Of a stretch of DNA of 64,000 bases, positions 2,418-32,548 are shown in pieces. The stretch covers positions 186,001 through 250,000 of the forward strand of contig JBEWZL010000011.1 in NCBI GenBank assembly GCA_045837725.1. Direction: 5' to 3'. Every line of letters begins with the position of its first letter. Positions within the stretch are counted from its first letter, which is position 1. The DNA is from Vermamoeba vermiformis. Lineage: Eukaryota. The notes beneath the pieces were generated by a model, which worked only from the letters and a program-made list of their open reading frames with translations, searched no databases and was not told the origin of the DNA. Both the position numbers and the translations under genes were made by a program.

Positions 2418-3434
2418 ATGAATCGTGTGTGCTTGTTAGTCCTCTTTTCTATTGCAGTAGCGGTGCTTGCTCAAACCCCGAGCCCGTGTCCAACCTGCGC
2501 TTACCCACTTGCCCCGCCGGCTCAATACAACAATGGCACGGGTATCAACAAAGCTGGCCAAAAAGTGCTTGTCGTCGGTGCTTCTTCTCCGAAAGGCATT
2601 GGTCGTAATGTTGCACTCTTCTACGCTAGCCTCGGTGCTGAAGTGTACGCGTGCGCGAGAACTCCACGCAGCCAAGTGAAGAATTACCACGAATTTGTCG
2701 CTGCAGGCGTCACTTACCTTTATTGTGACGTCACCCAAGCTGCCACGTTGACCATTCTCGAGCGTCAGTTGAAGAATAGATACGGCGTTCATGCCTTGGA
2801 TCTGATTGCAGTCACTTCTGGCATTTTCTATTTTGGTGATTCAAACGAGATCTTGCCTCACCAAGCCAAGCAAGTCTTGGAGACCAACCAACTTGGCCCC
2901 TCCAATGTGTGGTACGCCTTGTCGGACATGTTGAAGCCCAACGCTAGCTTTGCCTTCGTTTCATCGTCTAACGCTCAAATCCCCTCGCCTTATGCCGCTG
3001 ACTACTCCGCCAGCAAAGTTGGTTTGCGTATGAAGATGCAAGTGCTCGCTTGGTCCAATCGCAATCGCATTGTTCCCGTCAAGTTCATCGACATCATGCC
3101 CAGTCAAGCCAATACCAACATCATGGAAAACGCTTTGCGCTCAGTTAACCCGAAGTGCCCTTCAGTGGATGCGGCTGCCTACAACGCCACAGCCAACATC
3201 TTGTTGACCCAAGGTCAATCTGGTTTGAACGTTGCCACTGCCTTCTTAGGAGCAGAGTTGATTGCCAAGCCTAACGAATACACCGTAGCTCACTCCGACG
3301 GCAGCAACCTCCTGTATCAACAATACGTCTATCTCGCTGGCCTCAACTTACGATTGTTGCCTCAAGAAGCCAATAACGCATACCAATTATTGTTCCAAGG
3401 TACTGCTAATGACCCCACAGTCTGCCCTCATTAA
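2418..3434 (+). CDS. Intronless short-chain dehydrogenase/reductase with N-terminal signal peptide
   Basis: 338-aa ORF with hydrophobic leader, Rossmann motif VLVVGASSPKGIG and catalytic YSASK. Confidence 0.85.
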   Translation: MNRVCLLVLFSIAVAVLAQTPSPCPTCAYPLAPPAQYNNGTGINKAGQKVLVVGASSPKGIGRNVALFYASLGAEVYACARTPRSQVKNYHEFVAAGVTYLYCDVTQAATLTILERQLKNRYGVHALDLIAVTSGIFYFGDSNEILPHQAKQVLETNQLGPSNVWYALSDMLKPNASFAFVSSSNAQIPSPYAADYSASKVGLRMKMQVLAWSNRNRIVPVKFIDIMPSQANTNIMENALRSVNPKCPSVDAAAYNATANILLTQGQSGLNVATAFLGAELIAKPNEYTVAHSDGSNLLYQQYVYLAGLNLRLLPQEANNAYQLLFQGTANDPTVCPH

Positions 3435-14057: not shown

Positions 14058-17000
14058 TCACTTGTTGCTTGCAATATTATCGCCGGAGAGAGTCTGTTTT
14101 AATTCTTTCTTGATAGGCGCGAGAGGGGAGGAAGGATTATCGCGGTTTGCTAAATACAAACGTTTTAACGCATTGAATATAATCATACCGTATTTAGGTG
14201 TCTTCCATTCTGGCTCTACGTATGGCTCTGTTTGATCTGTCGTACTGACAGTCGGATTCGCAGCGATATTAGATTGATTATTATTATTATCACTAACGTT
14301 AGTATTGTTATTATTTGTATTATCATTAAAATCGTCTACTATTTCAGTGTCATCAACGGGTGTTTTGTCTTCAATTTGCTTCGTGTTAAATGACGCTTTT
14401 GTATAATCAAAATTGTCGTTTTTATGAACGGAAATAAATTCGGTAGGTGGTGTAACTGACGTGCATAATTTCAAACGATCAACGTTAATATAATGGTCGA
14501 GAATTTCTCCGTCTGGATTTGCAATTACGTATGTGAGCGGAGATCTTCGCGCGACAACGGTATAAGGACCTGACCAGGGTAAAGAGAATTTAGGAATTTG
14601 ACCTGGCACGCTTCGCGGCAGCCAATAAAACCAAACACGGTCGCCAATTTTAAATTGTGAGTCGCGACGATATTCATTATAATATTCTTTCATTCTATTT
14701 TGAGTCGCAACGATATTTTCGGTAATATATTTACGAGCAATATCTCTACCTTTAATAATTTCATCTAACACTTCATTATTGTTTAAATTTTCGTTTAAAT
14801 CTGGTGCGTCAGGAAAAATTCGGTCTATAATTTGATCAGAGTCATACCCGTATAAAGCAAAGAAAGGACTATAACCAATAGTTGGATGTTTTGCTTTGCG
14901 GTACGCGTTTTGAACGTATTTTAAATAAATATCCCACTCGCCTTGATTATCGTGGACGTATACTGATAAAAGCGTCGCGAGCGTATGATTAAATCTTTCA
15001 ACAAGTCCGTCTGTTTGTGGGTGATAAGTTGTTGTAAATGACGGTTTTGTTTTAAAATATTGTAAGATCTCTTCGCGAAATTTGTTTCTAAAACTCGATC
15101 CGCGATCCGAAAGAACTCTAAGCGGTGGATTATGCTCAATAACAACGTAATCTATATACGCTTTAGCTACTGATTTCGCACTAATGTCCTTTAACGGGAC
15201 ACAAATTGGAAATCGCGTTAAATAATCGCAAAATACGATAATATATCTATAACCACGTTTAGTTAACGGCAACGGACCAAGAATATCCATGCCGATCAAT
15301 TCCCACGGTTTTGAGACCTTAATTGGTTTTAAATAACCCGCTTTATAAACGCGAGGAGTCTTTCGTGCAATGCATTTAACACACGAGCGTTTAAATTTCT
15401 CTGGAATAGCGAGACATAATTTCGCGTGTGAAGGATTATGATCTTGATATTTTAATTTATATAATAGTCCGTTTTGCATATATAGATCCGAGCATTTACG
15501 TAAAAATTCAATCCCCGATCTGTGTGGTACGCAATCGCGTTCAAAGTAATCTATATATAATTTTAATTTAGGATCGTTTAATTGTTCTTGTCTGAATTTA
15601 TCCGGATTCGACGCAAAATTAAATTCGAGAGTAGATTCGATTGTCATCGAATTAATTGTGAAATTTGGAAGTCTAGATAGAGAATCTGCATTACCGTTTT
15701 TACGACCAGGTTTAGCACGAACTGTGAAGTTGTAATCCGCGAGAGCCATTTTCCAACGAGCAACCTTGCCGTTCATCGCTCTGAATGAGTCCATAAATTC
15801 GAGAGATTTATGATCTGTCTCTATTATAAAAGGTTGACCGTATAAATAAGATCTAAAATGTTTTATAGCTTCGACAGCTGCGAGGCATTCCCGTTCAGTC
15901 GCCGACGATTTAGCTTCACTATCCGTTAATTTGCGCGACCAATACGCAACAGGGTGGTCTTTGCCTTTCTCATCACATTGTGAGAGTACGGCACCGATTC
16001 CAAAAGCGGATGCGTCGACTTGAAGAATAAACGGTTTGTTAAAATCAGGATAATGCATAATTGGTTGACTTATTAAGCACGTTTTTAATCTATTGAATGC
16101 TGCAGAGCATTCTGTAGTCCATTCGAAAGTATTATTTTTCTTTAATAAATCCGTTAATGGGCGAGCTTTCTGCGCGAAATTACGAACGAATCTACGATAA
16201 TAATTACAAATACCCAAAAATGAGCGCACTTGAGTGACACTTTCTTTAATGCGGTCTTCATGCCAACTCGAAATTGCTCTAATTTTATCCGGGTCTGGTT
16301 TAATTCCTTTTTCGCTAATAATATGCCCGAGATAATTTGTTTCATAATAAGCGAATCTACATTTTGACGGTTTAACTTTTAGATTTGATCCACGGAGGCG
16401 ATCGAATACTTCGCGTAATCTACTCATGTGCTCGTCGAAAGTGCGCGAGAAAACTAATATATCATCTATGTAGACAAGACACGTTTTCCAATTTAATCCT
16501 GCTAGTGTCACGTTCATTAATCTTTGAAAAGTAGCAGGTGCGTTAGTCAAACCAAATGGCATGACGTTAAATTCGTATAAACCCGAATGTGTTGTAAAAG
16601 CAGTCTTTTCTTTGTCTTCTTCGCGAATTGGAATTTGATAATATCCAGAAATTAGATCTAACGTTGTAAAATATTTCATGTGCGACAAATGATTCAACGC
16701 GTCATCGATCCTCGGAAGAGGATATACATCCTTCTTTGTTACAGCATTTAATTTACGATAGTCAATGCAAAAACGTTTTGTTCCGTCTTTCTTTTTCACT
16801 AATAAGACAGGCGACGACCACGGAGAACTAGATGGTCGTATTTGTTGATTGTCTAACATGCGTTGGACAAATTCATCTATTTCTTTACGCTCTGACGGCG
16901 ATAATTTAGAGAATGGTCTAGACCTAACAGGGCCGTCTGTAACTTGAATTTCGTGTTTTACTTTATCCGTTGTAGTTTTTAATTCAGACGAGAATACGTC

Positions 17001-18010
17001 TTCGAATTCTTTAATGAATTCTTTTAGTGCCTCGATTTCGTTGCGACTTAATTTCGGATTAATTTGAGGGGACTGTGACGCAGGAAGGGAGACACGATCC
17101 TGTTGATGTACTTTTTCCATCGCGAGGATAACCTTAGTCCTTTCCGCATTCCCACGGAACATTGGATTCGAGAGACTTTGCGATGTTACGGGAGGGGTAT
17201 TAGCGGACGCATCATCATCTGAATCCGTTGTTCTAGTCCTATTCGTTCTATTCTCTGCCGAATTGTCGTCTAGAATAATTTCAAAACCATATTGATCTAG
17301 ACATACACTAAAGTTTCGCGTGGCTCGCGCTACTAGACTACTGTGCAAAACTAAAGTGTTTCGGTTCTCAGAGTTAGTCACGAACACATCGACAGTGTTG
17401 TTCGGACGTACAACCCCCATCTGTCTTCCAACAACTGCGCGATGCCGAGAATCAGACATCTCGATCAACAAATTGTCACCTACTTTCAAGTTGTTCTCCT
17501 TACTAAATTTACATCGAATAATAATTCCTGAGTGACTTGGCACTTTAATCGTACTACATGAATAGAGCGCAATTTCAAATTCTTTATCATTACTACAATC
17601 AATCATATTAATCTCGTTTGCTGTCCACGCAACTTTGTTCGCAATCATTAACTCAGCTTTAGCGGTAGTGAGCGTGTCCATTCCAAGTAATAAATCGAAT
17701 CTGAAATTCTCGATATATAATGCTGTAACAGGGATCGATACGTCATTGATCTCAATATTAAATTGTGCGTATTTGTTCGCATATATAATCTCAGAGTTTG
17801 CAACTCGTAATGTATATTGTCTCGTGTTGTATAATATGATATTGGGATACTTATTAATGAAATTGTTATTGATAACAGAGACTGATGCTCCAGTATCAAT
17901 TAATGCTTGAATATTAGTGTTATATAATTTGACCGTTACGAAAGGTAATTTCGTGGACTGAATTAAATTAACGAGCAGCTCAGAGTCCACGTCTAACTGC
18001 TCTGATTGCC
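14058..18010 (-). CDS. pol: Pol polyprotein (aspartic protease, RT, RNase H, integrase)
   Basis: LIDTGAS; RFCIDYRKLN; YIDD; QVDAS; integrase MDILG, SDRG, LVERFN; GPY module. Frame is open back to the slippery site. Confidence 0.95.
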
Positions 18011-18017
18011 ATTTCCC
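17952..18017 (-). promoter_or_regulatory. -1 programmed ribosomal frameshift signal (slippery heptamer + H-type pseudoknot)
   Basis: G GGA AAT at 18017-18011, 8-nt spacer, stem GAGCAG/CTGCTC, loop CGTGGAC complementary to downstream GTCCACG; pol is in the -1 frame. Confidence 0.85.
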
Positions 18018-19216
18018 TGCCTCTTTCCATTGTTGTTTTGTTGTTGATTTGGGTTACCGGTAAAGTTCGGCATCATGTTATTATTATACGTTTGGTTTGG
18101 ATTGCCGTTAAAGTTAGGATTCATGTTTGGTAACGCGTAAAATGGTTGAAACGGAAGGGCTTGAGGAAGTACGAAAGGGAGGTATTGATTTTGATTTTGA
18201 GGCATTTGTTGTTGTTGATTATTGTTATTGTTATATCGACGACGATTGAAAGAACCTCGTTGGTTACCACGGTTATCATTGTATTGTTGTGAATAATTTG
18301 GTTTCCCACGTTGAGGAAACGGTCTACCTCGGTTGGGGTTACCTCGAAAATTTGGCTTACCACGAGTAGAAATGAAATTTACGTCATCAATTGGATTGTT
18401 ATTATTTTGAGTAGTCTCGGTATCATTTACCTGAGTTACAGCATTCACAGTTCCAGTCGCGTTCGTTTTCGCAGCTTTCGGTTTGATGATAATACTCCAT
18501 GGCAAGTTGACCATTGCGCTTGAGAGTCGCGAGTAATCTGTCATCATCGAGACCATGTTCGTACGTACGTGCGTGCTCACGTGTTCTGGGAGGGCATCAA
18601 GCAAATACTTGATCTTGTCGGGATCTGACGATGGGTACGATGCAAAATGAGAGTTGAAGCGAGTGTAGAACTGATTAAAAGTCTCTTTTTCAGGGTCCCA
18701 TCTCTCGTTCGATATTTCGCTTTGCTTGACCATGTTGCTTTCAGGAGCGATGTAGTTTGTCGCAAGCCATTTAGCAGCTGATACCATGTCTTGTTTGAAC
18801 TCTTGTGATGCTCCATTCCATGCTTTCAAAGGGCCACCAGCCAATTTACGACCAAATATGAGCAACTGTTCCTTCGCTGATAACTTGTGAAATTGGACAA
18901 GGCTGTAGAACGATTCCAACCATGTGGTGCTATCCTTTTGTTTAACCATATCGAACGGTTTGCAATTGGTGTCTGCGATAGCGTCCTTCAATCGACGATT
19001 GCCAGCCAATTTATCGTTGAGCGTTTTGACTTCGGTTTTAAGTTGGTTGTTTTCGCTTTGGATGCGAGTAATATCGTTTCTTAATTGAGCATTTTCTTGA
19101 CGTACCAATTGGTGTAAATTATACAAGTCCATGTATTGTTTTCGATAATCTTCCAGATTTGATGCAGATGCGGGAGTACTTTCGCTGGCAATATCAATTT
19201 CTTCGTCTTCAGATAT
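17993..19216 (-). CDS. gag: Gag (N-terminus lost at the DNA-transposon junction)
   Basis: Coiled coil, retrotransposon capsid-like core (WLESF...LAGGPLKAW...ETFNQFYTRF), N/Q/R-rich tail ending QGNGNQSS*. Confidence 0.85.
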   Translation of the reverse strand: MSEDEEIDIASESTPASASNLEDYRKQYMDLYNLHQLVRQENAQLRNDITRIQSENNQLKTEVKTLNDKLAGNRRLKDAIADTNCKPFDMVKQKDSTTWLESFYSLVQFHKLSAKEQLLIFGRKLAGGPLKAWNGASQEFKQDMVSAAKWLATNYIAPESNMVKQSEISNERWDPEKETFNQFYTRFNSHFASYPSSDPDKIKYLLDALPEHVSTHVRTNMVSMMTDYSRLSSAMVNLPWSIIIKPKAAKTNATGTVNAVTQVNDTETTQNNNNPIDDVNFISTRGKPNFRGNPNRGRPFPQRGKPNYSQQYNDNRGNQRGSFNRRRYNNNNNQQQQMPQNQNQYLPFVLPQALPFQPFYALPNMNPNFNGNPNQTYNNNMMPNFTGNPNQQQNNNGKRQGNGNQSS

Positions 19217-19240
19217 GGCAAGGTCCGCGAGTCTCAGTCC
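19217..19240 (+). repeat. Left TIR
   Basis: GGCAAGGTCCGCGAGTCTCAGTCC preceded by ATAT (19213-19216). Confidence 0.9.
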
Positions 19241-19313
19241 AAATGATCGGAGAAATTGCATTTGGCAAATTGAATTTTTCATACCGTTTATTATAATTTG
19301 TAGTATGACATAA

Positions 19314-21368
19314 TTAAATATTTTGTTCTTCAAACTCTTCTACCAAATCATCACATTGCAAGTCTGATTCGGGAATCCACGAGTTAAATGAGTTGTCGTA
19401 ACCAGCCCATTTTACTTCGTACTGAACTTGGTTCTTAACTTTTCGTTTGCCAACAATGCATTCCACTTCAAATTCTTCACCTTCAGATCTTTCATCTTCG
19501 GTGGGAGCACTTGTTCCTTTTGGATGGTTGACTCCCACCACAGTTGTATGTCTTTCAATCCATTCTCCAACAGTATTCTGATTTGTGCACTTGTCAAATT
19601 GAAACTTTAAGCAGTGAGTACAGACGCAAGGCCATCTACGCATGTAAAGCTTGTTTGGTTGTCTTGAAAACACAAAGTCATAGCATGATTTAATGCCAGA
19701 AACAGTTGAAACATCTTCTTCAGTATCATTGTATTGAATATTTAGGACAGTTGAAGAACCTCCTTCAATTGTTGACCAATAAGCTGCTAAATCTTCTGGG
19801 GTGTCAATAAATCCATCTTCTTTCAGAACATGAATACGGGCTTTCTTTTTCAACAGTGCACCACGTCCATCACACTCTCCTTTTCCATGGTAAGCAGGGT
19901 CGATAATCCAGCGTAAATGAAGACCAAGAGTTGAGAAAACCTTGGTTCCCCAGTGCATTGAGCGACGATTCTTGAAGTGTTGCATTCCTCCATCAGTTAG
20001 TAGAATGCAGTGGCAAACATCATTGCCTAAATCTAACAGTGGAAGAAGTGCAGTAAATGCCTTTTGGAATACCACAGATGTGTGGTATAGGTAAGGTGAA
20101 ACAAACGCGTGGTACTTTTTGATGATGTCTGGCTGTTCTCTGGTACTTAATGCACTGTGGTACCAAATGGTTGCAATCAGGACAGTAGTTTGTCGCCTTC
20201 CATAAAATGCATTGCCAACTTCAATTGAACTAATGTGAGAGTAGTTCATTAGAAAGTCCCAGCGCATCATGACTGTATCCATTGGAAGCTGTGCTTTCAA
20301 TGTTTTGATTGTTGACTTCTGCCATTCAACATGAAGCTTGTGGTCTTTTGCTTTGGAGGTAGCCTCTTTGTAGCCCTGAAGGAATTGTTGCCTTGTACTG
20401 TTGTGCGAAACATGTACCATCTGATTGGGTGCATACTTGTCTCGATCATTAAGAAGTGCTTTTGAAGGAATAGGAACTATCCAGTTCTCAGCAGCTTGAG
20501 ATTGAAATTCAACTGGACAGTCATCAACAGAACAGGTGCAATCAGGTGTGCAGTCAGCACCATGATTACAAGCAGAACAGTAGAGACACAGGCACTGACA
20601 TCTATCATGCCACTGACGTCGTTTCTGCTGGAGCATCTTTGTCCAATGATGAGCAGAGGAGCAGGTTGGGCACAAACCAGAGTAGTAACGTTGCAAGTAA
20701 ACACACTTTGGAACTAAGGAGTAAAAGGTAGAACAGCCAACTCCATTTGGGCAATCAGTCTATTGACAATGTTAGTAAAAGTAGAAAATGGACGCGCGGC
20801 GCGTTGACGGAATGGGTACCTTGTACTGCTGAAAAAGTTCACCAATTGAGGAGTCACGATAATGCATAACTTGGAAGCCCCAAGAACCATTTGCTTCACG
20901 TTGGCGAACAACATTGGATGAATTGGCAGAGGCACGGCAGTGATCCAAAATCCAGTTTGTAACAAGAGAGGGTTCGACTGGGAGCCTGCTAGCTTTGTAT
21001 TGGGTCTTTGTAACAAACTTGTTGTGTTTGCCGGTTAATAAACTGTCACGAAGCTTTTCACGGGCATCCAATAGAGCTCTGGTAATGCTGCGTGTTGAAA
21101 TGCCAAGAACTTCTGCCTGAGCTTTGTCTGTTTCGTCTGACAACATGGTGCCCAAACTGCCACGAAAGAAGCCAGAAACTCGTTCTGATTTGGCGGCAAC
21201 GCGAAGAGCTTGTGAGTAATTGGAAAGCAAATTATGCTTTGTCGAAGAGCAACTGAGGACGTGCAAATGTGGTGCAATTCGTTGGTGCTTGAATACTTGA
21301 AGGAGCTCTGGTTCAATGCGCTCTGGCGGAATTTGAGAGAAAGTAGCAAGGAGTAGGTGTTGGTACAT
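19314..21368 (-). CDS. Sola2-like DDD transposase with Cys-rich region and C-terminal chromodomain
   Basis: Exons 21368-20820 and 20759-19314 (60-bp intron with TACTAAC); motifs WDFLMNY, LTDGGMQHFKN, YHGKGECDGRG; chromodomain EFEVECIVGKR...YEVKWAGYDNSFNSWIPESDL. An additional 5' exon is possible. Confidence 0.82.
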
Positions 21369-23670
21369 CTGTGTTATTGTTCGTGAAGGAGTACTTGAAA
21401 TAAATTAGTAAAGGGAGAGTGAACGCGCCGCGCGTTCATAGTTTTTATTAATTTTATTATGAAAAAAAAAATAAAAAGCAGTTGTTCTTTCATTATTTTC
21501 AATTTTTCAAACAGTGCACCACAAATGAAAAAATCTACTCCTACACCAGAGTCGAGCAAGGCTTTGCTCGATAAATGGCTCACAAACGAAGGCAATCCTA
21601 CTTCAGTCCCGTTGGCTCAAATGACTGTGCGAGGTAAAGAAAAATATTAATTTTAAAAATCACAAACGCGCTGCGCTTTCACGCCAAAGAGCTGATTATT
21701 ATTCACAAGTGTTGTAGTATTTTTAAGCAATATTGTTACCTTTTTTTGAACGCGCAGCGCGTCGATAAAAAATGCATAATTTTTGGACGCGCGGCGCGTT
21801 CATTGTTGTTCTCACTGCTCTAATAATTTTCAATAGGAACATACCGCACTGTTACTGAAGAAGGAAAAGCCACGATTAAGAACAACATTATTGCGCAAGG
21901 AGCTGGCGACTTCATGAATGGTTTAAATCGTACGGAGCCATTTCTTGTTCAACTGCTGCCGCCCGACGAAAAAACGAAGAAGAAAAGCAAGCAACCCGAG
22001 TACCGAATTCTTGGCGGCAACCATCGATACGAGATATTCAAGGAAATGTAAGTTAATAATGGTGTTGGTTTTTCACACAATACTAAAACAGCAATAGGGG
22101 TGTTACGGAATGGCCTTGCTACATTCTTGCTGCTACGGTTGACGATGTAAAAATGACAGAGTCGGAGACTGAGCAATTGGCTGGCATGGACAACGGCAAA
22201 TCCCAGTACGGAATCGCAAAGGCTGGCTGGTTTGAATAGTTCGAGAAGCTAAACCGCTATCTGCAATTTCCCGGCATCGTCGTCACTAAGGGAAAACGGA
22301 CAACTACGAACTGGGAGGCAATCTATGCGCTGTCTGGTAATCACGAAGGGCTATCCGTCAACACCGCGAAAAAGCTAGCAACTGCACGCACAAACACGGT
22401 GCAGGCAACTCAGGAGAAGAAGTTCGAAAAAAACCCTTTGTTCATTCGCATGCAAGCCCTACACGCCAAGTACGGGTACAATCTGCCAATCAAAATGAAG
22501 ATGTTCACCGAAGAGAAGAGGTTTTGGCAAATGGACACGTTTCAACAGGTGGAGGCAGTAAATCTGTTCATTGAATGCATCGAACAGAACAAGTGCAAAG
22601 GAACTGGAACTGGTAAGTCATTCAAAAATGTCTTTCTTTATGAACGCGCCGCGCGTCAACAAAAACTTTCTTTGTTTGAACAAAAAATTGTACTTTTTTC
22701 TGAACGCGCGGCGCGTTGACAACACTACATTGTTTATGAACGCGCGGCGCGTCGATAAAACTTAGCTTTTTATGAATAAAAAATTGGGAATTTTTCTGAA
22801 CGCGCGGCGCGTCGACAAATATTTGAATTTTTTGTACGAAAATTGCCTATCTTTATGAACGCGCCGCGCGTTGACAAAAACACTTTGTTTTTTTATAACA
22901 ATTCTCATTCACTTGTAGATTGGAGTTCAATGATTGACAGTGTTCTCCGACGTGCTAAAATCGTCGATTATATTGGCAAAGCACAACCTCAGGCTGATTT
23001 GCTTGAGGAGTATACTGAAGCTGTTGGTCGTGGCGAGTTTCCTTGGTTGGAAGAAGCGTGCACGGATGCACTAGATAACGCAGCAATGCAGCACCTTTTG
23101 AAATGCCTTGAGAAGGGCACCGCTGCTAAATCTGTAAAAGCACCTGTTCCTGTGTTAGATGGGCCGGTACGAATACGTTCACTCATACAACTTTACATTC
23201 TAACTTTTTTCACAGAAATCACCCTCTGCCAAGAAACCGCAGTCTTCCAAGAAGGACGAGCTTCTCAAGGAGAGAATCGATGCACATATCGATTCAGAAA
23301 ATGTTGAAGCCAGACCACCAGAAGAAGTTGATGCAAGCCAAAGTGAAGCTGAACCTGACGATCTTGCTGATAAGAGACCTTCGCGGCAAAAACATACAAC
23401 TAAGGCTGCTGACGAAAACACGGAGGCCGCAGAAGCCACTGTGGACAAGCCTGTTAAGGAGAAGAATTCTGCGGAGGCAGCTGGTGACAAGCCTGCTAAA
23501 GGCAAAGATGCAGCACAGGCTACTGGTGACAAATCTGCTGCTAATAAGCCTGCTAAAGGCAAGAATGCACAGGCAGCTGTCACTGATCAAGAACCAAGCG
23601 AAAAAGGATCTCCCAAGAATACACCTAAGAAAGGTGATTCCCCTCCTGTAAGCGTGAACGCGCCGCGCGT
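20792..23670. repeat. Dispersed palindrome ACGCGC-N-GCGCGT, 11 copies
   Basis: Cores start at 20792, 21423, 21666 (degenerate), 21750, 21787, 22644, 22704, 22740, 22800, 22859, 23658; all intronic or intergenic. Confidence 0.92.
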
Positions 23671-24729
23671 TTTGCCCTACGTATCTAATTTAATGTTTTA
23701 GGATGCCACACTGTGGAAAGTTTCTGCCACAGAGCAACTTACCACTCATTTCAATGCTCATTACAATGTTGTTCCTGAATTTGGCTTGCAGCTTCCAATT
23801 GTGACGAAGGCTGACTTGGTCTTTTATAACTGCACTGGAAGAATTTCTAACGCACATTGGAATGCAATGATGAAGTCCGTCCTCGAAAATGGCAGGGTTG
23901 TGATTATTGCTGAGCCAGCAGACTCCCCAACTATTTTCACTGGTCTTTCCGCCAAGGAAAATACTTTGGAGTTCGACTTCAAGTACACTGGCGTGATGTC
24001 ATATCCTCCTTCGCGGGTCCTTCAAAAAGACCGCCCTGCAGCAACTTGCTGGGACTTCTACTTTCTCAAGGTGAAAGGTGGCCAGCCACACTTTAATGAT
24101 GAAGATTTGGATGGGGCACGCCACAGAAGTCAATACTGGTCTCATGGTACCTTCAAAGCACCAACACAGGAAGAGCACTTGCACGCAAGAGCTTCCACTG
24201 CTGCACCTCCTATGTATCCAAGGCAGCCTCCAATTGAAATGTTTGAGTTTGTTATTCGGGTAAGTTTCTTTTTTTCACCACCTTTCCTTTGCTGACTAAT
24301 TGATAGGCCTTTGCTCCGCCTGCCCCTTTTGTCATTGTTTTCAACGAGTGCTCGGCAGCATCTTACATTGCCTGCGTCAATATGACAGCCACCTACCTTG
24401 GTTTCATGCTTACTGACAACAAGGAGGTTGCATGCCAACATGTTTCAAGGTTCATTTCCTCACGCTTGTCCAGCCAAGAAGATGCCACAGCCCTTCAAAA
24501 CACTTTGTTTGAGATTGTTACAAACAAAGTGCAAGAAGGTGATGAAGATGATGAGCCACTGGGACTGCCTGACACTCCTGCTAAGATGGCTGTGGATGAG
24601 GATTTGCCTGAGACCCCTTATGTGCCTGGCATCATGGATGAAACCCCAGCAGCTTCAAAGAAGCGCAAACGTGATGAACCTTCGTCACCTACAAACTTCA
24701 CCAAGAAGTCCAAATCTAATGCCAAGTAG
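21525..24729 (+). pseudogene. ParB/Srx-like N-terminal domain + low-complexity linker + degenerate DNA methyltransferase-like domain; one premature TAG
   Basis: Six exons; YRILGGNHRYEIF, EWPCYIL, EQLAGMDN; C-terminal ADLVFYN...VLENGRVVII...YPRQPPIEMFEFVIRAFAPPAPFVIVF...YLGF; TAG at 22237-22239 with the frame open on both sides. Confidence 0.65.
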
Positions 24730-24930
24730 GGCATTTGACTTGTAAAACTTTTTGCCTGTAGCAGGTTTTGTTTTACAATAAATATATCTTTTTCATACAA
24801 AATATTCTATTTCGTAAACTTTGTTTTTGCTCAAGTACGCTCTGTTTGTTTTTAACATACTATTTATTTAATTTAGTTGTATGAATTATTACAGTTTCGG
24901 AACATTTCTTCGAAAAATTGAATTTCTTCA

Positions 24931-24954
24931 GGACTGAGACTCGTGGACCTTGCC
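24931..24954 (-). repeat. Right TIR
   Basis: GGACTGAGACTCGTGGACCTTGCC followed by ATAT (24955-24958). Confidence 0.9.
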
Positions 24955-25302
24955 ATATTTTAATTTTTTTTGCACTTTGCCGAATCCTTTCCAAAATCAA
25001 TTTTTAAGCTTGTAACAGCATATTTACATGTATTAAAGCTATTATTTTATTATTCTGATCATCTTTTTCTACCAAAGCCTGTCATCAGCATTGTCATCAG
25101 CCCTCTCATCAGTTTTTGTCATCGGCACCCAAATTTTCGCAAAATTATTTCGGATTTACCTTGACTTTCTCATTGTTTTTGATCATTTGGGCATAATTAG
25201 CCTCCTCTGAAGTATATTTGGGCAAATTTTGAGACGCGCTGCCCTCGGCCTAGCGGCCTCGGACAGCGCCGAAGATCCCATTGTATAATCAATCACTAAT
25301 TA

Positions 25303-28300
25303 AAGCAAGTTGTATAGTGCAGCATTGGTGAAACAACTGGGAACCTTGACATTTTGCAACATCCATTGGCAAACGGGCTGTCCAATTGACTTGGAAATCA
25401 CCTGTCCGCCGTTTAGTGCTGGTAGTGCCATAGCTGGAGTGTAGTAAGTCTAGCTAATATATTTTACAATGTAAAATTTTGCTTACCAGCCTTCAGCTTT
25501 AATTCACGCCCATACTCGCCAGAACACACTGCACAGCTGGTGTTATCAATGAAGACTAAGCTTGCCTCAAAGATTTGTCTTCATGCCACATTAGTGAAAG
25601 CTACAGATGGTTCCCTTCAGTTTGGAATAACCGAAGGTCAGCATCGCCTTTCCACTCTTGCAACTCTCTATGCTAGCCACCCCCAAATTGCCAATTCCAC
25701 CTTGATTCTGCTTCAAGTTTGTCGAACAAAAGAGGTATATACATATCAATAGCATCCTTCTTATCCACCTGTGTTTATTAATTCATCACAGGACATCTTA
25801 GAGCTAACAAGCCAGCAAGGTGAAGCAGACTCAAATGCTTTAAGGGTGACTTGGGTGGATTCAGTATTCAATATTTGTCGGTTATTGCAAACCAACCCCA
25901 ATACTCACAACTGGACAACTACAGACTTCAGAGTTGCATTGGGAGCACCTTTTGAGAAGCAACAGGCCTACTGTAAGTGAAATGCATTCGGTTCACCAAC
26001 TATTTACTAACTGGAACAGTTAAATACTTGAAGATTGCAAAAGGCCTTGGAGAAGAAGCTTTCAGATATATTTTTAATTGTGTTCGAAAGCGTGCAATAG
26101 CCGAAATGAAGGGGTTACCAACAGAAGAGCCTTCATTCTCGTATAGCAAGCTAGAAACCCTCATCAAGCATTCACATGACACTCAGCTTAAATTAGTGCT
26201 TCAGAGTGAGTAGAATTGCTAATTACTATAATTACAGCTCTGTGATAACTGGTGCACTATTCAATACTGACTCTGACAGGAAATAATTTTGAACAAATTG
26301 GCCTATGGGAGAAACACGTTGCTGAAACACTCAAATCTGCCAAACAACACGAAAAACATGTGACAGTGTTCAAACAAGAAGTTGAGAGCTTAATGAAGGA
26401 GACAGATATCCAAAAACAATTAATACTCGAAATGGGTCTGCAATGGCTGACTGGTCCCAGTTTTAGTTCAGCTGAGCTTGATGACAAAGATATAACACGC
26501 AGGTTAAGTGTCATCAAGCAGATTGGCCAAATATTGAAGTTCACCGAGCATTCTGACTTCAGTGCAACAGACTTTCTACTGATTGACATCTGCTCTGGAG
26601 CTATTGATGATGAGGACCTTAGTAAACACATGAACAGAGCTGCTAGACTCGGTTGCTGGGGACTTTGTAAGCAGTGATTATTTATAACGACATGGTGCTA
26701 ACAAATGCAATAGGGATGCAAACAAAGGGCTTTGAGTTACCTAAGCTGGATGGTCTTATTCTTGTTCCTTTGTGCATTCTAGAAAACACTTTGTTTTCAC
26801 TATTTGCACCTCCAACAATAACAACAAGCTGTATCTTGAGCGTATTTGCTGCCCTCATGTACAAAGTAAGCTAATTCTATCTGCAAATCATTCTAACTGT
26901 TGCTTAGTTGACAGCTTCTGAGAGTTCTTTCAAAACAGCTGATCATGAAAGATTTATATTTAATGCAGCATTGGCATCATATATTTACTTCACAAAGCAA
27001 GGTACAGGTTTCTTTTTTTGCAATCACTGACTAATCACCTGTTCAGAATCAATTTGCGTATGGGATCTGTTTCCGGTCTCTTACCCAAGCTTGACTCGCT
27101 TCCGAACTGCCTACCAGGCGAATATCCAGTATAATGCACTTTGGAAATCCTCTGAACTTCAAATTGCTTTTGCCGCAAGCATTCAGGATGGATTCTCAAC
27201 ATTAGGGCCTCCACCTAAACGGTCCTTAGAAGTGCTGACTGCTGATGAGGTTAACAGGCTGGTAACAACAGTGCCTGCAGAGTCTGCTTTGCCAGAATCA
27301 GTTACTTCAGGAATTCCTCTGCACTACACCCAACCAACGAAGATAAAGTTACAACTAAAGCACAAATATGCACTCATGAATATTGAACATCAACTGCTCC
27401 CATATTTGAAGGATTTCAGCAAAGCAGACGCCATCTTTTCAGGGTTGCTTGAAAAGAGAAGCTTTAAACATAGTGTAGATGCAAGCAGCACACACCTTTA
27501 TTTTTTACCATACATCACCCTTGGTATGAATAGAATAATTACATGCCACTGTTACTCACCGTACAATTAAGAGCGCCAAAATATTGAAAGGAAGCTGCAA
27601 CATCATCTCGAATTGGCCTCCAAGTCATTATTTGAATGCACTCCGGAGGATTTTAAACTTTCGAACTGTTTGCTTAGAAATTTTCAGCACTGCCACAAAT
27701 GGGACAACATGTATATTTATCATGAAACAGTCTTTGGATCTTTGGGCTTTCATTTCGACTCCTTGGTAAGTTAAGTAAGGTTATGGAGCTAAGTATTAAC
27801 AAATTTCAAGGGTACTCCTGCAGTAAATATCTTGTTAGGACCTCCAGGATCAATGAAAATCTGGTACTTCATTGATGCAACACCTGAGAACTTGACTCGC
27901 TTTAGAAAATGTAAGTAGTATTTATCTTCTACTCTTTTCTAATGTTGGTCTGCATTCAGTGTGCGTACGGTCTTCTTCAAAAATTCAGGACATATGGATT
28001 ACACCTGAAACCCTAACCAAGAACGGAGTGACATTTCGTGTAGTGCATCAACAATGTGGAGACATGCTGATTGTTCCACCACTGCAATGGCATTGTGCTG
28101 TCTCAGCCCCCAATATCCCGGTAATTGTATTCATTAAACAAAAAAAAATAACTTACCACAGCACTAGGTTTCTCCAATTACTACAGGCATTGCATATACA
28201 ATCCTCCCCCTTCCTTGCTTACAACAAGCCATTGAGTTATACTTCAATTACACTACAACTCCAATCCCTTTGGAAATCATTTTGGGAGAGATGATTAACA

Positions 28301-29768
28301 AATCGTTCTTCAGCTCTTTATCACTTGAATATCAAAAAAGTTTAAAAGTTCAACTCACAAGAATAGTCAACAAATTCTCAAGCCTCAAAGATGCAAAGTT
28401 CAATACCCCACCATCGAGTAGACAATGTACAATCTGTGGTCGAGACCTTCCTTACTTCTTTGCAACGTGCAAGAAACTAGCTCTAAAATGCGACACAAGC
28501 AAGAAGCTGTTTTGCTGCTTTGTATGCTACCATCTTGATGTTTTTTCATCGTGTGGTCATGGGTTCACGTTATACAGATGTCACTATTCTGATACAATTT
28601 ACGAGCAACTAGAAAGGTATGTGTGTCCCAATATCAATCTCTATAATAATTTAATTTAGACTTATCGTGCAATTACACCCTGTAACTGAAGAAGGACAGT
28701 TATCATCAAATGACAATTCAGTTCTACCCAATGAAGCTGAGGCATTACAACATTCCATCATTGTACAAAACTCAGAGCTTGAAATCAATGAAACAAATGA
28801 ATTGCATCAATCTGTTTTCCCACAACTCGTTGCTGAAAATGAGGAACAAACTTCAAACACACTTGGCACTGTAAATGACCAATTCAAAAAGGTACAATTA
28901 ACTTACATAAAAATATCACTACTAATCATAATACAAGTACTGTCTCCACATTCTACAATGGACAAAGAGTTTATCTCCAGAATATTATCAGCTATTAGAT
29001 CTAGAACACCCTGTCATGCATCACTATGGAAACTTGGAGGCGTACTTGGTGTCAAACTTCAAATTACTCAGTGTTGGTTACAACAGTGCATCAACAGATA
29101 GCATTAAGCTTGACCAAACATACAAAACAATCACACAGCAGTTTTTTTCGTATGTTTACAAAAACAATAATGTATCATTTTAACATATCTAGCAGTGATA
29201 AGCCTTCAGATATTTTGCTGAAGAAGATGCAAATCATTAACGACACCTACTTCAAGGTGAAAAACCCTCATCAATACTTTGAGAACATTGAACTATTCGC
29301 CCAAAAGTTTAATTCCAGCTTTTTTGGATCACCAATGGATAATCAGGCCTTACACATTGATAGTGCCTGCTTTTTAGCAACAAAAAAAGCATTTGGACGA
29401 CTCAACAACACCCAAAAACAATATTTCATTCAACAGTAAGTACTTCTGGACTTGAAGTCAAAATTTCCTCTAATTGTTTATTTAGAGCTGCCCCAATGTT
29501 TGCTATGAGAGCAAAAAGTCTTGCACCACACCTGATTTTTATTCATGCAGCTCTTAATGTAGCTAACGTGCTATTGCCTTCCACCACCTTTGAAGAATTC
29601 ATGGTGTTTACCAAGAAGAAGAACACATACACTGTTTTTCATGCTGCTTGGGAAGGAGCTCAAGTTTTTGTGTTGCCACCAATGCAAAATTCCTTTGGGG
29701 GCCTTTCTTCTGCTGATGTCATTAGCTTAGCAGACAAATGTCTATCAGACTTCTTTAAAGATATTTAA
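25303..29768 (+). CDS. Large multi-exon ParB-like + JmjC (KDM4/5/6-like) + Cys/His zinc-finger protein, 5' end apparently missing
   Basis: NSRPYSPEHTAQLVLSM...ITEGQHRL; JmjC YIYHETVFGSLGFHFDSLGTPAVNILLG..MKIWYFI...HQQCGDMLIVPPLQWHCAVS; then CTICGRD...CKK...CCFVCYH...CGH. Confidence 0.72.
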
Positions 29769-29921
29769 CATAGCATATACTTCTTAACAAGCTTTATTAT
29801 ATATAATAAATACTTTTAGCAAAAACAACATCTTTGTTTACCTTTTGATCTTTGCTAAAAATTTACCACATTTTTATCAAAGACAATTTGTCTAAGCATT
29901 GAGAAATCCTTGTGGCCCTAG

Positions 29922-30223
29922 CAGAGTTAATAAATCTTTCAAACTCCATTATAGGGCAATTCACGACAGATGGAGGGCCAATCAAACATTGTTCCAAAGC
30001 CCAACCAAACAATTAGTGGTAAATTGGATTGTTGTGGCATGGAATCGAGTCGAACAGAATATAGTTAAAAAGAGCTTTAAGGTCTGTGGTATATCAAACG
30101 ACCTCAACGGAAGCGAAGAAAGTGAAGTGGCTGTCAAATTTCATCGCATGTTGTCATAAATTGTACAATAAATCCAGATTTTTCCAAACTGTTTATTTTT
30201 CCGACTTATTCGGCAGTTTACAG
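29922..30223 (+). mobile_element. 3' remnant of a pogo/Tigger-type (DDE_1) transposon
   Basis: VNKSFK...VVNWIVVAWNRV..NIVKKSFKVCGISNDLNGSEE, then a TIR-like end CCGACTTATTCGGCAGTTTACAG followed by TA. Confidence 0.7.
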
Positions 30224-30621
30224 TAAAGCAGAGTTTTCCTTGATACTATTATTGCCTCCTTCTAGGGCTCCTGAAAAACAAAAATAATCTAACAAAATTT
30301 CTAATAAGCAATAAGAATCCAGTTCTAGAGCTAGGCAACTCTACCTTTCTATTGCTATGCTCTTAGGCCATTCTCTTACGCTTTAAAATTTATCATTACC
30401 ATAAAAGGAAAAAAGGTCAAAAGCGTCCCCACCCAGGGGATGGTTTTCTTGTCCTCCTTTTTGTTTTGTTATTTTCACAATGTAGGGTTTTTCCATTGTG
30501 GTGTTTTTTTTTGTTGGTTAGGCCTGTGTGAATCTTTTGTAAGGAATTTCGCACAAAAGATCACAAATTTAATTCGTTATAACGTCGTATTGACTGCGCC
30601 CTTAATTAACAATATTGGAAA

Positions 30622-32548
30622 CTATTTACTAAATCTAGACACGTCAAACAAACTGTTGGTAAGGACCTTTTTCAAACTCTCTACAATGTGAAGCATTGGC
30701 TCATGATTTGTATTTGTTGATTGGAGCCACTCGTGATTTAATGCTTCTTTAAGAGAAAGTCGATCTGCAGCCTGAGTTGCTAATAATTTTGATATAAAGT
30801 CACGTGCTAGTGGAGTAACGTGATTGTCTGCAGGATCTGAAAATTTGAACGGCTCCTTCAGGTAACGATGTGTATGTACCATCAGTGCAAAATCATATTG
30901 TATATACTTGGCGTTAATTAAATCGTTCATAAATGGAAGACGGCCAGTCATTAACATGTGTGCTATCCAACCTAATTAACAATACATTTTTTAACAAAAT
31001 CAGTTCAGTAGCATGAATTTTGGATCTGACGAATACTACATAAAATTGATGCAGATATTGCATGAAGATAATAAGATAATAGTGCGTACTTACCGACTAC
31101 AAACGAATAAGTCTTTTCAGTGCACTTATCACCGGTGAACATTTCAAGCGTGGGGAGGAAAGATATAAAGTTGCCATTAAGTTCCGAAAAATGAAGCAAG
31201 GCCGGCAATAATTTAACCTCAATCTGGTGATAAGAAAAAAGAATTATTAACGCACATTTAAGGTATTTAAGTTATAATATTATTAGATCGCTATTATGCA
31301 TATTTAATAATTTAAAACGTACTTTATCGTTTGGCAGCAGATTCGCAGCCAGTAATCCGTGATTGAACTGGTACGAAAATATTTGATGGTCACAAAGCCA
31401 CTCAGCGAGCACCAATATTTGTCTCGTTATGTCTTGCACCTGCATTAATATACGAAACATTAAATAAGCAGAATTCCTAAACTTGAAACCGGATCGGACA
31501 TCAAACTTACGTTGGCTTCAGTGATAAGTTCAGGCCGTTTTAATAGTAATTCGAATAAGGATCCATCTGTTATTTCGCTAAATAATATGATACGGTGTGG
31601 CTTTCCGTTGTAGAAGAGATTTTGTACGGCCAGATTCGGATGTCGTTGATCTTTGAATTGAAGTTCGAAGTCGATCAAAAGGGGTTCAATGTCCTCTGGT
31701 TTGATGTCCATCTTAAAAGTAAATAAATGTTGTCCTATAGCAACGGGTGGGCTCCCAGGAATATTCTAAAAAGGAAAAATTAATTTCGGAATCGCTGTGC
31801 GGGTCCAACTTGCCTAAAAAGACTATAATTCAATCGGTATCGTTACATCAAATTAAATAACGCGATATGCTATTATTGCTTTTGTTTGACTTACGGCCAG
31901 TTGGATTCGCTGGATCGTACTTTGGTCAGACAGCGTTTTGATTTGTTTTTCGAAGCGGGAAATATTCTTTTCGTCAATAAAACAAGCAGTTAAACGTGAC
32001 AAGAATAACGAGAAATAATCTAGGAGCGTTATTAAATTCTAACGGATTTAAAGCCAAGTGCCACTTACCTGTATCTTCTTTGAAATATATCGACGAGATA
32101 TAATACTGCTTGCACATAAGCCTCCAAAAATCATTACTCTTAAAGACACCGTTCCAGTACTTGCTGAGCAGTTGAAGCCTGAATTATCAATTTAGCAAAT
32201 TCTTCTTTCGGTTTTATCAAATCGAGTCTTCGTAAAAATAATATAACAACAGTTTAATTAAATGATGCATCAAAATACCTTATAATGACCAATGGAGGTA
32301 GCGCAGCGTATTTTAAAATCTCGAATAATATTTCTTGTGGTAGTCGCGCGAGCCACTCTTCTTCCCAATGAACAAGCCTACTATTGCTAATCGTTAAATT
32401 ATTTTAAACGGAATATCCAAATTTTATAGTTTAGCAAACCGGATTTACGTAAAGACTTGTCATCTTACCCGTCATCGTTCGCGGATTCCTTTTCCTGGTG
32501 AGTGAATTTCTTTTTGTTGGTACGTTGACCTTTAGTAGTGTTTCCCAT
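30622..32548 (-). CDS. F-box + CAMK-like pseudokinase protein, possibly myristoylated (3' end uncertain)
   Basis: MGNTTK start; F-box LARLPQEILFEILKY...SKYWNGVFKSNDFWRLMC; kinase C-lobe MLMTGRLPF, ARDFISKLL, RLSLKEALNHEWL; no HRD or DFG seen. Confidence 0.65.

What the first reader, a model, noticed from the sequence alone, without database searches (positions are those of the whole stretch)
25303..29768. ParB-like domain fused to an apparently active JmjC demethylase and zinc finger
Metal ligands H-F-D (27751-27759) and distal H (28091-28093) plus the 2OG-binding K of KIWY are present, followed by a C5HC2-like finger, with a ParB-like EGQHR domain at the N-terminus. I know of no host KDM with this architecture. 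It is CpG-poor and abuts a truncated pogo, suggesting mobile cargo. It is the second ParB-effector fusion within a few kb, hinting at a family of ParB-delivered chromatin modifiers.
Basis: partly seen in the sequence, partly recalled or inferred. Interest (0 to 1): 0.82.

Follow-up and report, generated by a model that had tools for sequence, protein, structure and literature searches.

The report
Orphan JmjC gene with ParB-like motif
A 15-exon eukaryotic gene encodes a lone, apparently active JmjC oxygenase whose front end carries a weakly supported ParB/DndB-type motif; it has no detectable relatives and lies beside, not inside, a DNA transposon.

Summary
The gene is real. Fifteen + strand exons (25490-29768) are joined by 14 GT-AG introns of 42-74 bp and give 1197 open codons. 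The JmjC core is confirmed. Exon 10 hits Pfam JmjC (E 1.7e-4) and KDM4 structures. The spliced core aligns over its whole length to a bacterial JmjC profile, with H-F-D, the K of KIWY and the distal H in register (13.9 bits; 0 of 1000 shuffles reach it).

The ParB-like claim is only weakly supported. Pfam, NCBIfam, PHROGs, PADLOC, PDB sequences and 1.84 billion representatives give nothing. Home-made DndB and GmrSD_N profiles score exon 1 above nearly all motif-preserving shuffles (5 and 8 of 2000). Language-model neighbours are DUF6551/ParB_N clusters.

The first in-frame ATG (25549) lies after the would-be first strand and helix of the domain. No relatives were found anywhere. CpG depletion is real (0.35 against 1.08). 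The gene lies outside the inverted repeats of the neighbouring 5.75 kb transposon. Copy number and expression could not be tested.

Verdict: a lineage-restricted JmjC gene with a possible DGQHR-type N-terminus.

The parts
25490..29768 (+). Gene model with 15 exons: 25490-25734, 25792-25972, 26020-26205, 26280-26666, 26714-26865, 26908-27001, 27047-27523, 27572-27765, 27811-27910, 27960-28120, 28168-28616, 28660-28891, 28938-29149, 29193-29435, 29486-29768. The 5' limit of exon 1 is not established.
   Evidence: AG stands before every exon and GT after every exon but the last. There are 1197 open codons, and the only stop is the terminal TAA. Introns are 42-74 bp.
25549..25551 (+). First in-frame ATG. 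It gives a product of 1178 residues.
   Evidence: the ATGs in 24730-25560 are at 24881, 25028, 25469 and 25549 only.
25303..25418 (+). Coding status is unsupported.
   Evidence: translations of the three frames; sequence.
25492..25734 (+). Exon 1 peptide (81 aa) with a possible DGQHR-type ParB/Srx-like segment. The locally aligned part is residues 39-71.
   Evidence: local profiles; Atlas neighbours DUF6551/ParB_N. No hit.
25633..25647 (+). EGQHR motif.
   Evidence: It aligns to DGQHR of DndB and DGQQR of GmrSD_N.
27751..27759 (+). H-F-D, the proximal metal ligands of the JmjC core (exon 8).
   Evidence: aligned to HyD of the JmjC profile.
27826..27828 (+). Asn ten residues after the first His. 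A 2OG-contacting Asn sits at this position in KDM4A (recalled, not tested).
   Evidence: Sequence. The role is inferred from recalled KDM4A numbering.
27856..27858 (+). Lys of KIWY, the candidate 2-oxoglutarate-binding Lys (exon 9).
   Evidence: aligned to the K of 'GkKri' in the JmjC profile.
27962..28120 (+). Exon 10 peptide, the C-terminal half of the JmjC barrel, with the distal His at 28091-28093.
   Evidence: PF02373, E 1.7e-4; KDM4D/C/A aligned at the distal His.
28426..28584 (+). Cys/His-rich module (C-x2-C-x10-C-x6-C-x7-CC-x2-C-x-H-x6-C-x-H-x6-CH), presumably zinc-binding.
   Evidence: pattern. No Pfam hit. The fold attempt had pLDDT 40.5.
29805..29810 (+). AATAAA, 37 bp after the stop codon (29766-29768).
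19213..24958 (.). Context: the neighbouring 5.75 kb element, bounded by 28-nt inverted repeats (19213-19240 and 24931-24958). It does not include the JmjC gene.
   Evidence: (I4), 63 and 79: 2 matches in the window against 0 expected.
29896..30159 (+). Context: a weak pogo-type DDE_1 C-terminal fragment.
   Evidence: PF03184, E 0.018, 15 bits.

Best explanation
This is one intron-rich, lineage-restricted eukaryotic gene. Its splice signals look fungal: short introns with CTAAC/CTAAT-like motifs near the 3' ends. It encodes a protein of about 1180 residues.

Its centre is a JmjC Fe(II)/2-oxoglutarate oxygenase domain with the H-x-D...H metal triad and the 2OG-binding Lys intact, followed by a Cys/His-rich, probably zinc-binding module. 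About 570 N-terminal and 320 C-terminal residues have no known family.

The first coding exon carries a DGQHR-type motif with its flanking strand and helix, as in the DndB/GmrS branch of the ParB/Srx superfamily. I rate this as more likely real than chance (about 0.6). As annotated from the first ATG, the domain would lack its first strand and helix.

Inferred mechanism, not shown: the N-terminal module binds nucleic acid or a nucleotide and brings the oxygenase to chromatin or DNA. There the JmjC core hydroxylates or demethylates a protein substrate, most likely methyl-lysine, given the KDM4-like local similarity.

The gene sits in a CpG-depleted block of transposon-related DNA, but outside the inverted repeats of the adjacent transposon.
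For: Gene model: 15 exons, 14 GT-AG introns of 42-74 bp and 1197 open codons.

JmjC core:
- Pfam JmjC on exon 10 alone, E 1.7e-4.
- 46 PDB sequences at E<=10. The best is a 2-oxoglutarate oxygenase (E 0.016), followed by KDM4D, KDM4C and KDM4A. They align at 'GDMLIVPPLQWH'.
- A profile of 7 bacterial JmjC domains aligns residues 62-164 of the spliced core with HFD, K and the distal H in register. The score is 13.9 bits; 0 of 1000 shuffles reach it, and the best shuffle scores 4.3.

DGQHR-type segment:
- Exon 1 scores 11.6 bits against a profile of 22 DndB N-termini. 0 of 1000 full shuffles and 5 of 2000 motif-preserving shuffles reach it.
- It scores 9.2 bits against 29 GmrSD_N N-termini. 0 of 1000 and 8 of 2000 shuffles reach it.
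- hhalign probabilities are 57.9% (DndB) and 35.7% (GmrSD_N).
- Of 30 Atlas neighbours, 11 are DUF6551 clusters and 2 are clusters in which 11% of members carry ParB_N. The score is 0.93.

Lineage restriction: no relative.

CpG observed/expected is 0.35 with TpG and CpA at 1.37.
Against: ParB-like part:
- No ParB_N, DndB, GmrSD_N or DUF6551 hit at E<=10 in Pfam, and none in NCBIfam, PHROGs or PADLOC.
- phmmer over 1.84 billion representatives gave one hit, to a repetitive 421-aa protein. I judge it spurious.
- I tried five profiles, so the shuffle counts need a correction of about five-fold.
- Against ParB_N itself, exon 1 scores 1.0 bit (55 of 2000 motif-preserving shuffles reach it) and hhalign gives 1%.
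- Atlas shared features number 146-149 of 256, below the 170 typical of true family members.
- The single-sequence fold was all-helical at pLDDT 53.6 and is uninformative.

Gene start and function:
- There is no ATG upstream of 25549, so the conserved-Arg segment (FNSRP) may not be translated.
- No transcript evidence exists for the model.
- The JmjC Pfam score on one exon (22.5 bits) is under the gathering cut-off of 24.
- No JmjN, ARID, PHD, Tudor or zf-C5HC2 domain was found.
Confidence: 0.55

Rival explanations
1. It is an orphan JmjC gene without any ParB/Srx domain. EGQHR and its flanks are a chance resemblance in a unique N-terminal region.
For: - Four HMM libraries, PDB sequences and 1.84 billion representatives give no ParB-superfamily hit.
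- A loose G-x-[HR]-R pattern occurs 5 times in the six frames of the window against 1.1 in shuffles. One copy lies in a phospholipase D gene, so the motif alone is cheap.
- hhalign against ParB_N gives 1%.
- The would-be first strand and helix lie before the first ATG.
Against: - Motif-preserving shuffles rarely reach the real score against DndB (5 of 2000) or GmrSD_N (8 of 2000), so the flanks add signal.
- The language-model neighbours fall in the ParB clan.
- The ParB_N alignment, though not significant, places Arg 6 and EGQHR in the expected register.
Confidence: 0.35
2. It is a silenced, decaying passenger of a transposon nest. On this reading it is a formerly mobile or captured gene that is no longer expressed and has lost its 5' end.
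For: - The CpG-depleted block runs from about 19.5 to 30.0 kb, with TpG/CpA excess. It is shared with the adjacent transposon and differs from the flanking kinase gene and the gypsy element.
- There is no ATG for the 5' open frame.
- A pogo-like fragment lies just downstream.
- No relatives were found anywhere.
Against: - 1197 codons over 15 exons are free of stops, and all 14 introns keep GT-AG.
- The catalytic residues are intact.
- The gene lies outside the only clear inverted repeats, and none flank it.
- Copy number was not testable because no genome is held.
Confidence: 0.25
3. It is a conserved single-copy host KDM4/KDM5-type demethylase that was simply mis-read.
For: Exon 10 is closest to KDM4 structures. 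A Cys/His-rich module follows the JmjC core, as in KDM5-type proteins (recalled).
Against: - No homologue at all for exons 1, 7 or 11.
- No JmjN, ARID, PHD, Tudor or zf-C5HC2 hit.
- The triad is H-x-D, not the H-x-E of KDM4-6 (recalled).
- The CpG profile is unlike that of the host genes in the window.
Confidence: 0.03
4. There are two adjacent genes: the EGQHR exons and the JmjC exons lie on separate transcripts.
For: No RNA evidence ties them together.
Against: The largest gap between consecutive exons is 74 bp, every gap has GT-AG ends, and the frame is kept across all 14 junctions. That leaves no room for a terminator and a promoter.
Confidence: 0.05

Closest known systems
KDM4 (JMJD2) and KDM5 (JARID1) JmjC histone demethylases
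   Same: Double-stranded beta-helix core with two His, an acidic ligand and a 2OG-binding Lys. Exon 10 aligns best to KDM4D/C/A at the distal His. A Cys/His-rich module follows the core, as the C5HC2 finger does in KDM5 (recalled).
   Different: The triad is H-x-D rather than H-x-E (recalled). No JmjN, ARID, PHD, Tudor or zf-C5HC2 hit. The N- and C-terminal regions are unique, and no orthologues were found.
DndB and GmrS/GmrSD_N (DUF262), the DGQHR/DGQQR branch of the ParB/Srx superfamily in bacteria
   Same: The motif, its preceding strand and its following helix: 'DGSLQFGITEGQHRLSTLATL' against 'dgeasllviDGQhRlagik' and 'fevIDGQQRLTTL'.
   Different: Only about 33 residues align. There is no library-level hit. 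The host is eukaryotic and the gene has introns. The segment is fused to a JmjC oxygenase rather than to HNH/DUF1524 or placed in a dnd operon.
Phage ParB-dependent 5-methylpyrimidine (TET/JBP) dioxygenases (PMC13229309, abstract read)
   Same: A ParB-family module is coupled functionally to an Fe(II)/2OG dioxygenase.
   Different: There the two are separate proteins of phages, and the enzyme is a TET/JBP DNA-base oxidase. Here it is one eukaryotic polypeptide with a JmjC core, and the coupling is untested.
Fungal DNA transposons that carry TET/JBP dioxygenase genes (PMC12730594; search listing and a word search of the text)
   Same: An Fe/2OG dioxygenase gene lies next to a DNA-transposase gene in a genome with fungus-like introns.
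   Different: The paper's text has none of the words JmjC, ParB or chromodomain. Here the gene lies outside the transposon's inverted repeats.
ParB-type HTH fused to Dam-like adenine methyltransferases in chlorophytes and chytrids (PMC4738411, passages read)
   Same: It is a precedent for a ParB-derived module fused to a nucleic-acid or chromatin modifier in microbial eukaryotes.
   Different: That fusion uses the HTH part of ParB and a methyltransferase. Here the candidate is the N-terminal ParB/Srx-type domain, and the enzyme is a JmjC oxygenase.

Membership tests
JmjC domain (Pfam PF02373) | H-x-D/E ... H metal triad at the profile's ligand positions | tested here: met
   HFD aligns to HyD and the distal H to 'wwHev' over profile positions 27-127. 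Searches agree for the distal His.
JmjC domain (Pfam PF02373) | 2-oxoglutarate-binding Lys about 18-20 residues after the first His | tested here: met
   the K of 'GSMKIW' aligns to the K of 'GkKri'. The spacing is +20, by counting the residues. The role of this Lys is recalled from KDM4A.
JmjC domain (Pfam PF02373) | Score above Pfam's gathering cut-off (24 bits) | tested here: inconclusive
   Exon 10 alone reaches 22.5 bits, E 1.7e-4. The domain is split over exons 8-11, and the spliced protein could not be handed to the library search.
KDM5/JARID1 or KDM4/JMJD2 subfamily | JmjN domain upstream of JmjC, plus ARID/PHD/zf-C5HC2 (KDM5) or PHD/Tudor (KDM4) | tested here: not met
   None of these families appears at E<=1 to 10 on any exon.
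ParB/Srx superfamily (ParB_N, DndB, GmrSD_N, DUF6551) | Library HMM match | tested here: not met
   No hit at E<=10 in Pfam or NCBIfam, none to a ParB-superfamily model in PHROGs, and none in PADLOC. None in PDB sequences.
ParB/Srx superfamily (DGQHR/DGQQR branch) | [DE]GQ[HQ]R motif after a beta-strand and before a helix, scoring above chance against family profiles | tested here: inconclusive
   DndB profile: 11.6 bits, reached by 5 of 2000 motif-preserving shuffles. GmrSD_N profile: 9.2 bits, reached by 8 of 2000. hhalign gives 57.9% and 35.7%. Only about 33 columns align, and five profiles were tried.
ParB/Srx superfamily | ParB/Srx fold of the N-terminal domain | not testable with these tools
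   The single-sequence AlphaFold2 model of exon 1 had pLDDT 53.6. There are no homologues for an alignment, and the spliced protein cannot be submitted.
Cargo of the adjacent TIR-bounded DNA transposon | Position between the element's terminal inverted repeats | tested here: not met
   The repeats lie at 19213-19240 and 24931-24958 only. The gene starts at 25490 or later, and no inverted repeats flank it.
Multi-copy mobile element | Several copies in the genome | not testable with these tools
   No genome is held. There is no second copy in the 64 kb window.

The most novel reading that the evidence does not exclude
A eukaryotic transposon-associated system in which DGQHR/ParB-type DNA-targeting modules are joined to chromatin enzymes.

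In this reading the JmjC protein is brought by its N-terminal module to specific DNA. One candidate target is the ten CpG-rich palindromes ACGCGCSGCGCGT, which survive inside the otherwise CpG-depleted neighbouring element. There the protein removes repressive histone methylation, acting as an anti-silencing factor for the element. That would be a parS/ParB-like logic reused in eukaryotic chromatin.
Probability: 0.12. Interest if true: 0.85.

Novelty: new variant of a known kind. Interest (0 to 1): 0.5.

Why it matters
JmjC oxygenases are normally aimed at chromatin by reader domains such as PHD, Tudor and ARID. A JmjC enzyme aimed by a ParB/DndB-type module would be a new targeting logic. It would also parallel the ParB-activated TET/JBP dioxygenases recently shown in phages.

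Its position in a methylation-scarred transposon nest raises a further question: do mobile elements in this lineage carry or recruit enzymes that erase silencing marks?

Even on the conservative reading, this is an intact, intron-rich JmjC gene with no detectable relative in billions of proteins. That makes it a clean case for studying how new chromatin enzymes arise.

Tried and rejected
Expression:
- No RNA holder was listed for the stretch.
- Three RNA runs under the same species label were laid on 19000-32000. They gave 1, 3 and 3 reads. None fell in the bins from 22038 to 29849, and almost none fell on the neighbouring kinase gene. This gives no evidence either way.

Tools not available:
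- Whole genome not held.

Relatives:
- Exon 7, longer proteins: 415 candidates, none at E<=0.001.
- Exon 11, longer proteins: 133 candidates, none.
- Exon 11, similar length: 12 candidates, none.
- Exon 1 against 1,835,955,588 representatives: one hit, P0001, an internally repetitive 421-aa protein matched in 5 stretches. I judged it spurious.
- Exon 11 in metagenome contigs (333 pattern matches, none confirmed) and in viral contigs (8, none confirmed).
- Exon 1 by tblastn on phages: two E=4 hits under a capsid gene.

Folds: exon 1 had pLDDT 53.6 and exon 11 had pLDDT 40.5. Both are too poor for a fold search, so none was run.

Other steps that led nowhere:
- DUF6551 is too rare for a good profile: 4 of 401 genomes, 2 over the cut-off. 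The 4-sequence profile gave 1.9 bits, reached by 157 of 2000 motif-preserving shuffles.
- Searching a phage record for DUF6551 or ParB_N gave no usable loci.

Considered and rejected:
- An upstream coding exon. The ATG at 24881 opens only 18 codons, and the one at 25028 is followed at once by a stop (read by eye).
- Gypsy LTR sequence upstream of the gene. Self-BLAST of the window finds no LTR pair.
- Homology between the two genes with G-x-HR motifs.

Literature:
- ParB + JmjC + 'domain architecture' gave 2 papers with incidental co-occurrence.
- DUF7869 gave 0 papers.
- DGQHR gave 8 papers, all prokaryotic by title.
- Supplements were not consulted.
Full report
THE GENE

The + strand between 25490 and 29768 holds 15 exons. 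Every exon is preceded by AG, and every exon but the last is followed by GT. The 14 introns are 42-74 bp. The joined frame has 1197 codons with a single, terminal stop (sequence). An AATAAA follows at 29805.

Most introns carry CTAAC/CTAAT-like motifs shortly before the 3' AG (read by eye). Together with their size, this looks fungal. That is an inference from general knowledge, not a test.

No gap between exons could hold a terminator and a promoter. At the level of the gene model, the EGQHR exon and the JmjC exons therefore belong together. There is no transcript evidence. No RNA holder was listed, and three RNA runs under the same species label put almost no reads on the whole 13 kb, including the neighbouring kinase gene.

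THE 5' END

The only ATGs between 24730 and 25560 are at 24881, 25028, 25469 and 25549. The first two open 18 codons and 2 codons (read). The third lies in the putative first intron.

The first in-frame ATG is 25549, which gives 1178 residues. The segment that would supply the first strand, the conserved Arg and the first helix of a ParB/Srx domain (FNSRP...LVLS) lies before that ATG. Either an upstream exon or start was missed, or the domain is N-terminally incomplete.

THE JmjC CORE

- Exon 10 alone hits Pfam JmjC (E 1.7e-4, 22.5 bits against a cut-off of 24).
- Exon 10 also hits 46 PDB sequences at E<=10. The best is a 2-oxoglutarate oxygenase (E 0.016), followed by KDM4D (0.022-0.031), KDM4C and KDM4A. 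All align at the distal His.
- Exons 8 and 9 are too short to score alone.

The spliced protein could not be handed to the library tools. I therefore built a profile from 7 bacterial JmjC domains and scored the spliced residues 561-780 in a script. The 7 came from 22 places; I took 9 with near-full coverage and dropped 2 for a stop. An unpublished genome was left out.

The score was 13.9 bits. None of 1000 shuffles reached it, and the best shuffle scored 4.3. The alignment runs over profile positions 27-127, with HFD on HyD, the K of KIWY on the profile's Lys, and GDMLIVPPLQWH on GdllfiPagwwH.

The core looks catalytically competent. Its substrate is not shown.

THE CYS/HIS-RICH MODULE

Residues encoded at 28426-28584 hold 9 Cys and 3 His in 53 positions. 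No zf-C5HC2 or other finger family matches, and the fold attempt failed (pLDDT 40.5). 'C5HC2-like' remains a resemblance of pattern, recalled from KDM5.

THE ParB-LIKE CLAIM

Negative results:
- No ParB_N, DndB, GmrSD_N or DUF6551 hit at E<=10 in Pfam or NCBIfam.
- Nothing relevant in PHROGs or PADLOC, nor in PDB sequences.
- phmmer over 1.84 billion representatives returned one repetitive protein, which I judge spurious.
- The single-sequence fold was unusable (pLDDT 53.6).

Positive but weak results:
- The 30 nearest language-model clusters include 11 DUF6551 clusters and 2 in which 11% of members carry ParB_N. The score is 0.93, with only 146-149 of 256 shared features.
- I built profiles from family members fetched from bacterial genomes and scored exon 1 without filters.

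Profile | Score (bits) | Full shuffles reaching it | Motif-preserving shuffles reaching it
DndB N-termini (22 sequences) | 11.6 | 0 of 1000 | 5 of 2000
GmrSD_N (29 sequences) | 9.2 | 0 of 1000 | 8 of 2000
ParB_N (30 sequences) | 1.0 | 22 of 1000 | 55 of 2000
DUF6551 (4 sequences) | 1.9 | 10 of 1000 | 157 of 2000
All pooled | 6.5 | 0 of 1000 | 62 of 2000

The alignments cover 'DGSLQFGITEGQHRLSTLATL...', set against 'dgeasllviDGQhRlagik' and 'fevIDGQQRLTTL'. hhalign gives 57.9% for DndB, 35.7% for GmrSD_N and 1% for ParB_N. The ParB_N alignment nevertheless puts Arg 6 and EGQHR in the expected register.

Three caveats apply. The region was chosen for its motif. Five profiles were tried. Only about 33 columns align.

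I conclude that a DGQHR-type ParB/Srx-like segment is more likely than not (about 0.6), but it is unproven. The resemblance is to the DndB/GmrS branch, not to partition ParB.

THE 'SECOND FUSION'

The neighbour's GGNHR exon (21827-22051) gets only PHROG 'ParB-like partition protein' at E 0.28. It scores 2.0 bits against ParB_N, which 24 of 2000 motif-preserving shuffles reach. It shows no BLASTP similarity to exon 1. The two genes share nothing by tblastn. A 'family' is not shown.

SURROUNDINGS AND MOBILITY

CpG observed/expected is 0.35 in the gene. The window as a whole is 1.08, the gypsy element 1.58 and the kinase gene 1.12. TpG and CpA are raised to 1.37.

The depleted block runs from about 19.5 to 30.0 kb. 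It is interrupted only where CpG-rich palindromes sit. This fits long-term cytosine methylation, which is an inference.

A 28-nt inverted repeat occurs only at 19213-19240 and 24931-24958. It bounds a 5.75 kb element with two outward-reading genes:
- A minus-strand ORF with a chromodomain (E 1.5e-14). Its Atlas neighbours are eukaryotic DUF7869 clusters (17 of 30).
- The GGNHR gene.

The JmjC gene lies outside this element, 532 bp to its right. No inverted repeats flank the gene, and the window holds no second copy. The downstream 'pogo' is a DDE_1 tail at E 0.018.

The gene is therefore in a transposon nest and shares its compositional history. 'Cargo' is not shown, and copy number could not be tested.

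RELATIVES AND LITERATURE

No relative of exons 1, 7 or 11 was found in any collection. It is not a conserved KDM orthologue.

I found no paper describing a ParB-JmjC architecture. The nearest precedents are:
- ParB-activated TET/JBP dioxygenases of phages (PMC13229309, abstract).
- ParB-HTH fused to Dam-like methyltransferases in chlorophytes and chytrids (PMC4738411, passages).
- Fungal DNA transposons carrying TET/JBP genes (PMC12730594; listing and a word search that found none of JmjC, ParB or chromodomain).

Supplements were closed and may hold architectures that I could not see.

VERDICT

This is a real, intact, lineage-restricted JmjC gene with an unusual and possibly ParB/DndB-type N-terminus, in a CpG-depleted transposon nest. 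The ParB assignment is plausible but weak. The claims of mobile cargo and of a family are not supported by what could be tested.

Noticed in passing
window 19213-24958: A compact DNA-transposon-like element. It is bounded by 28-nt inverted repeats (one mismatch) that sit just beyond the 3' ends of two outward-reading genes. One is a minus-strand ORF (19314-21404) with a C-terminal chromodomain and DUF7869-like Atlas neighbours. The other is a + strand gene (about 21600-24729) with a GGNHR motif and a basic tail. ATAT stands at both outer edges.
   Followed up: partly
window 20792-23670: The CpG-rich palindrome ACGCGCSGCGCGT occurs 10 times (0.04 expected), and only inside that element. Five copies lie in tandem units of about 60 nt at 22624-22901. 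All appear to fall between open frames, in introns or intergenic DNA, and they persist in an otherwise CpG-depleted block. They could be protein-binding sites or small palindromic inserts.
   Followed up: partly
window 14058-19339 (- strand): A Ty3/gypsy-type gag and pol (ORFs of 1331 and 448 aa) with CpG observed/expected of 1.58, opposite to the adjacent block. Self-BLAST of the window finds no LTR pair. The open frame of gag runs through the transposon's left inverted repeat, so the element seems cut at its 5' end.
   Followed up: partly
window 62000-64000: A second CpG-depleted stretch (observed/expected 0.22; TpG 1.38, CpA 1.57) holds a 324-aa minus-strand ORF (62395-63369) with no Pfam family. 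It shows no similarity to the JmjC gene by tblastn.
   Followed up: no
window 30622-31765 (- strand): A protein kinase gene (Pkinase, E 5.4e-8 on one exon) with normal CpG content starts about 850 bp after the JmjC stop codon. It marks the right edge of the depleted block.
   Followed up: no
window 1185-3434, 45372-47234 and 59347-61700: Ordinary host-type genes surround the nest: TPR plus MYND finger, a short-chain dehydrogenase, a USP7-like protein, an LRR protein, and a phospholipase D-like gene (the last named by eye only). The transposon nest at 14-30 kb therefore sits in gene-rich DNA.
   Followed up: no
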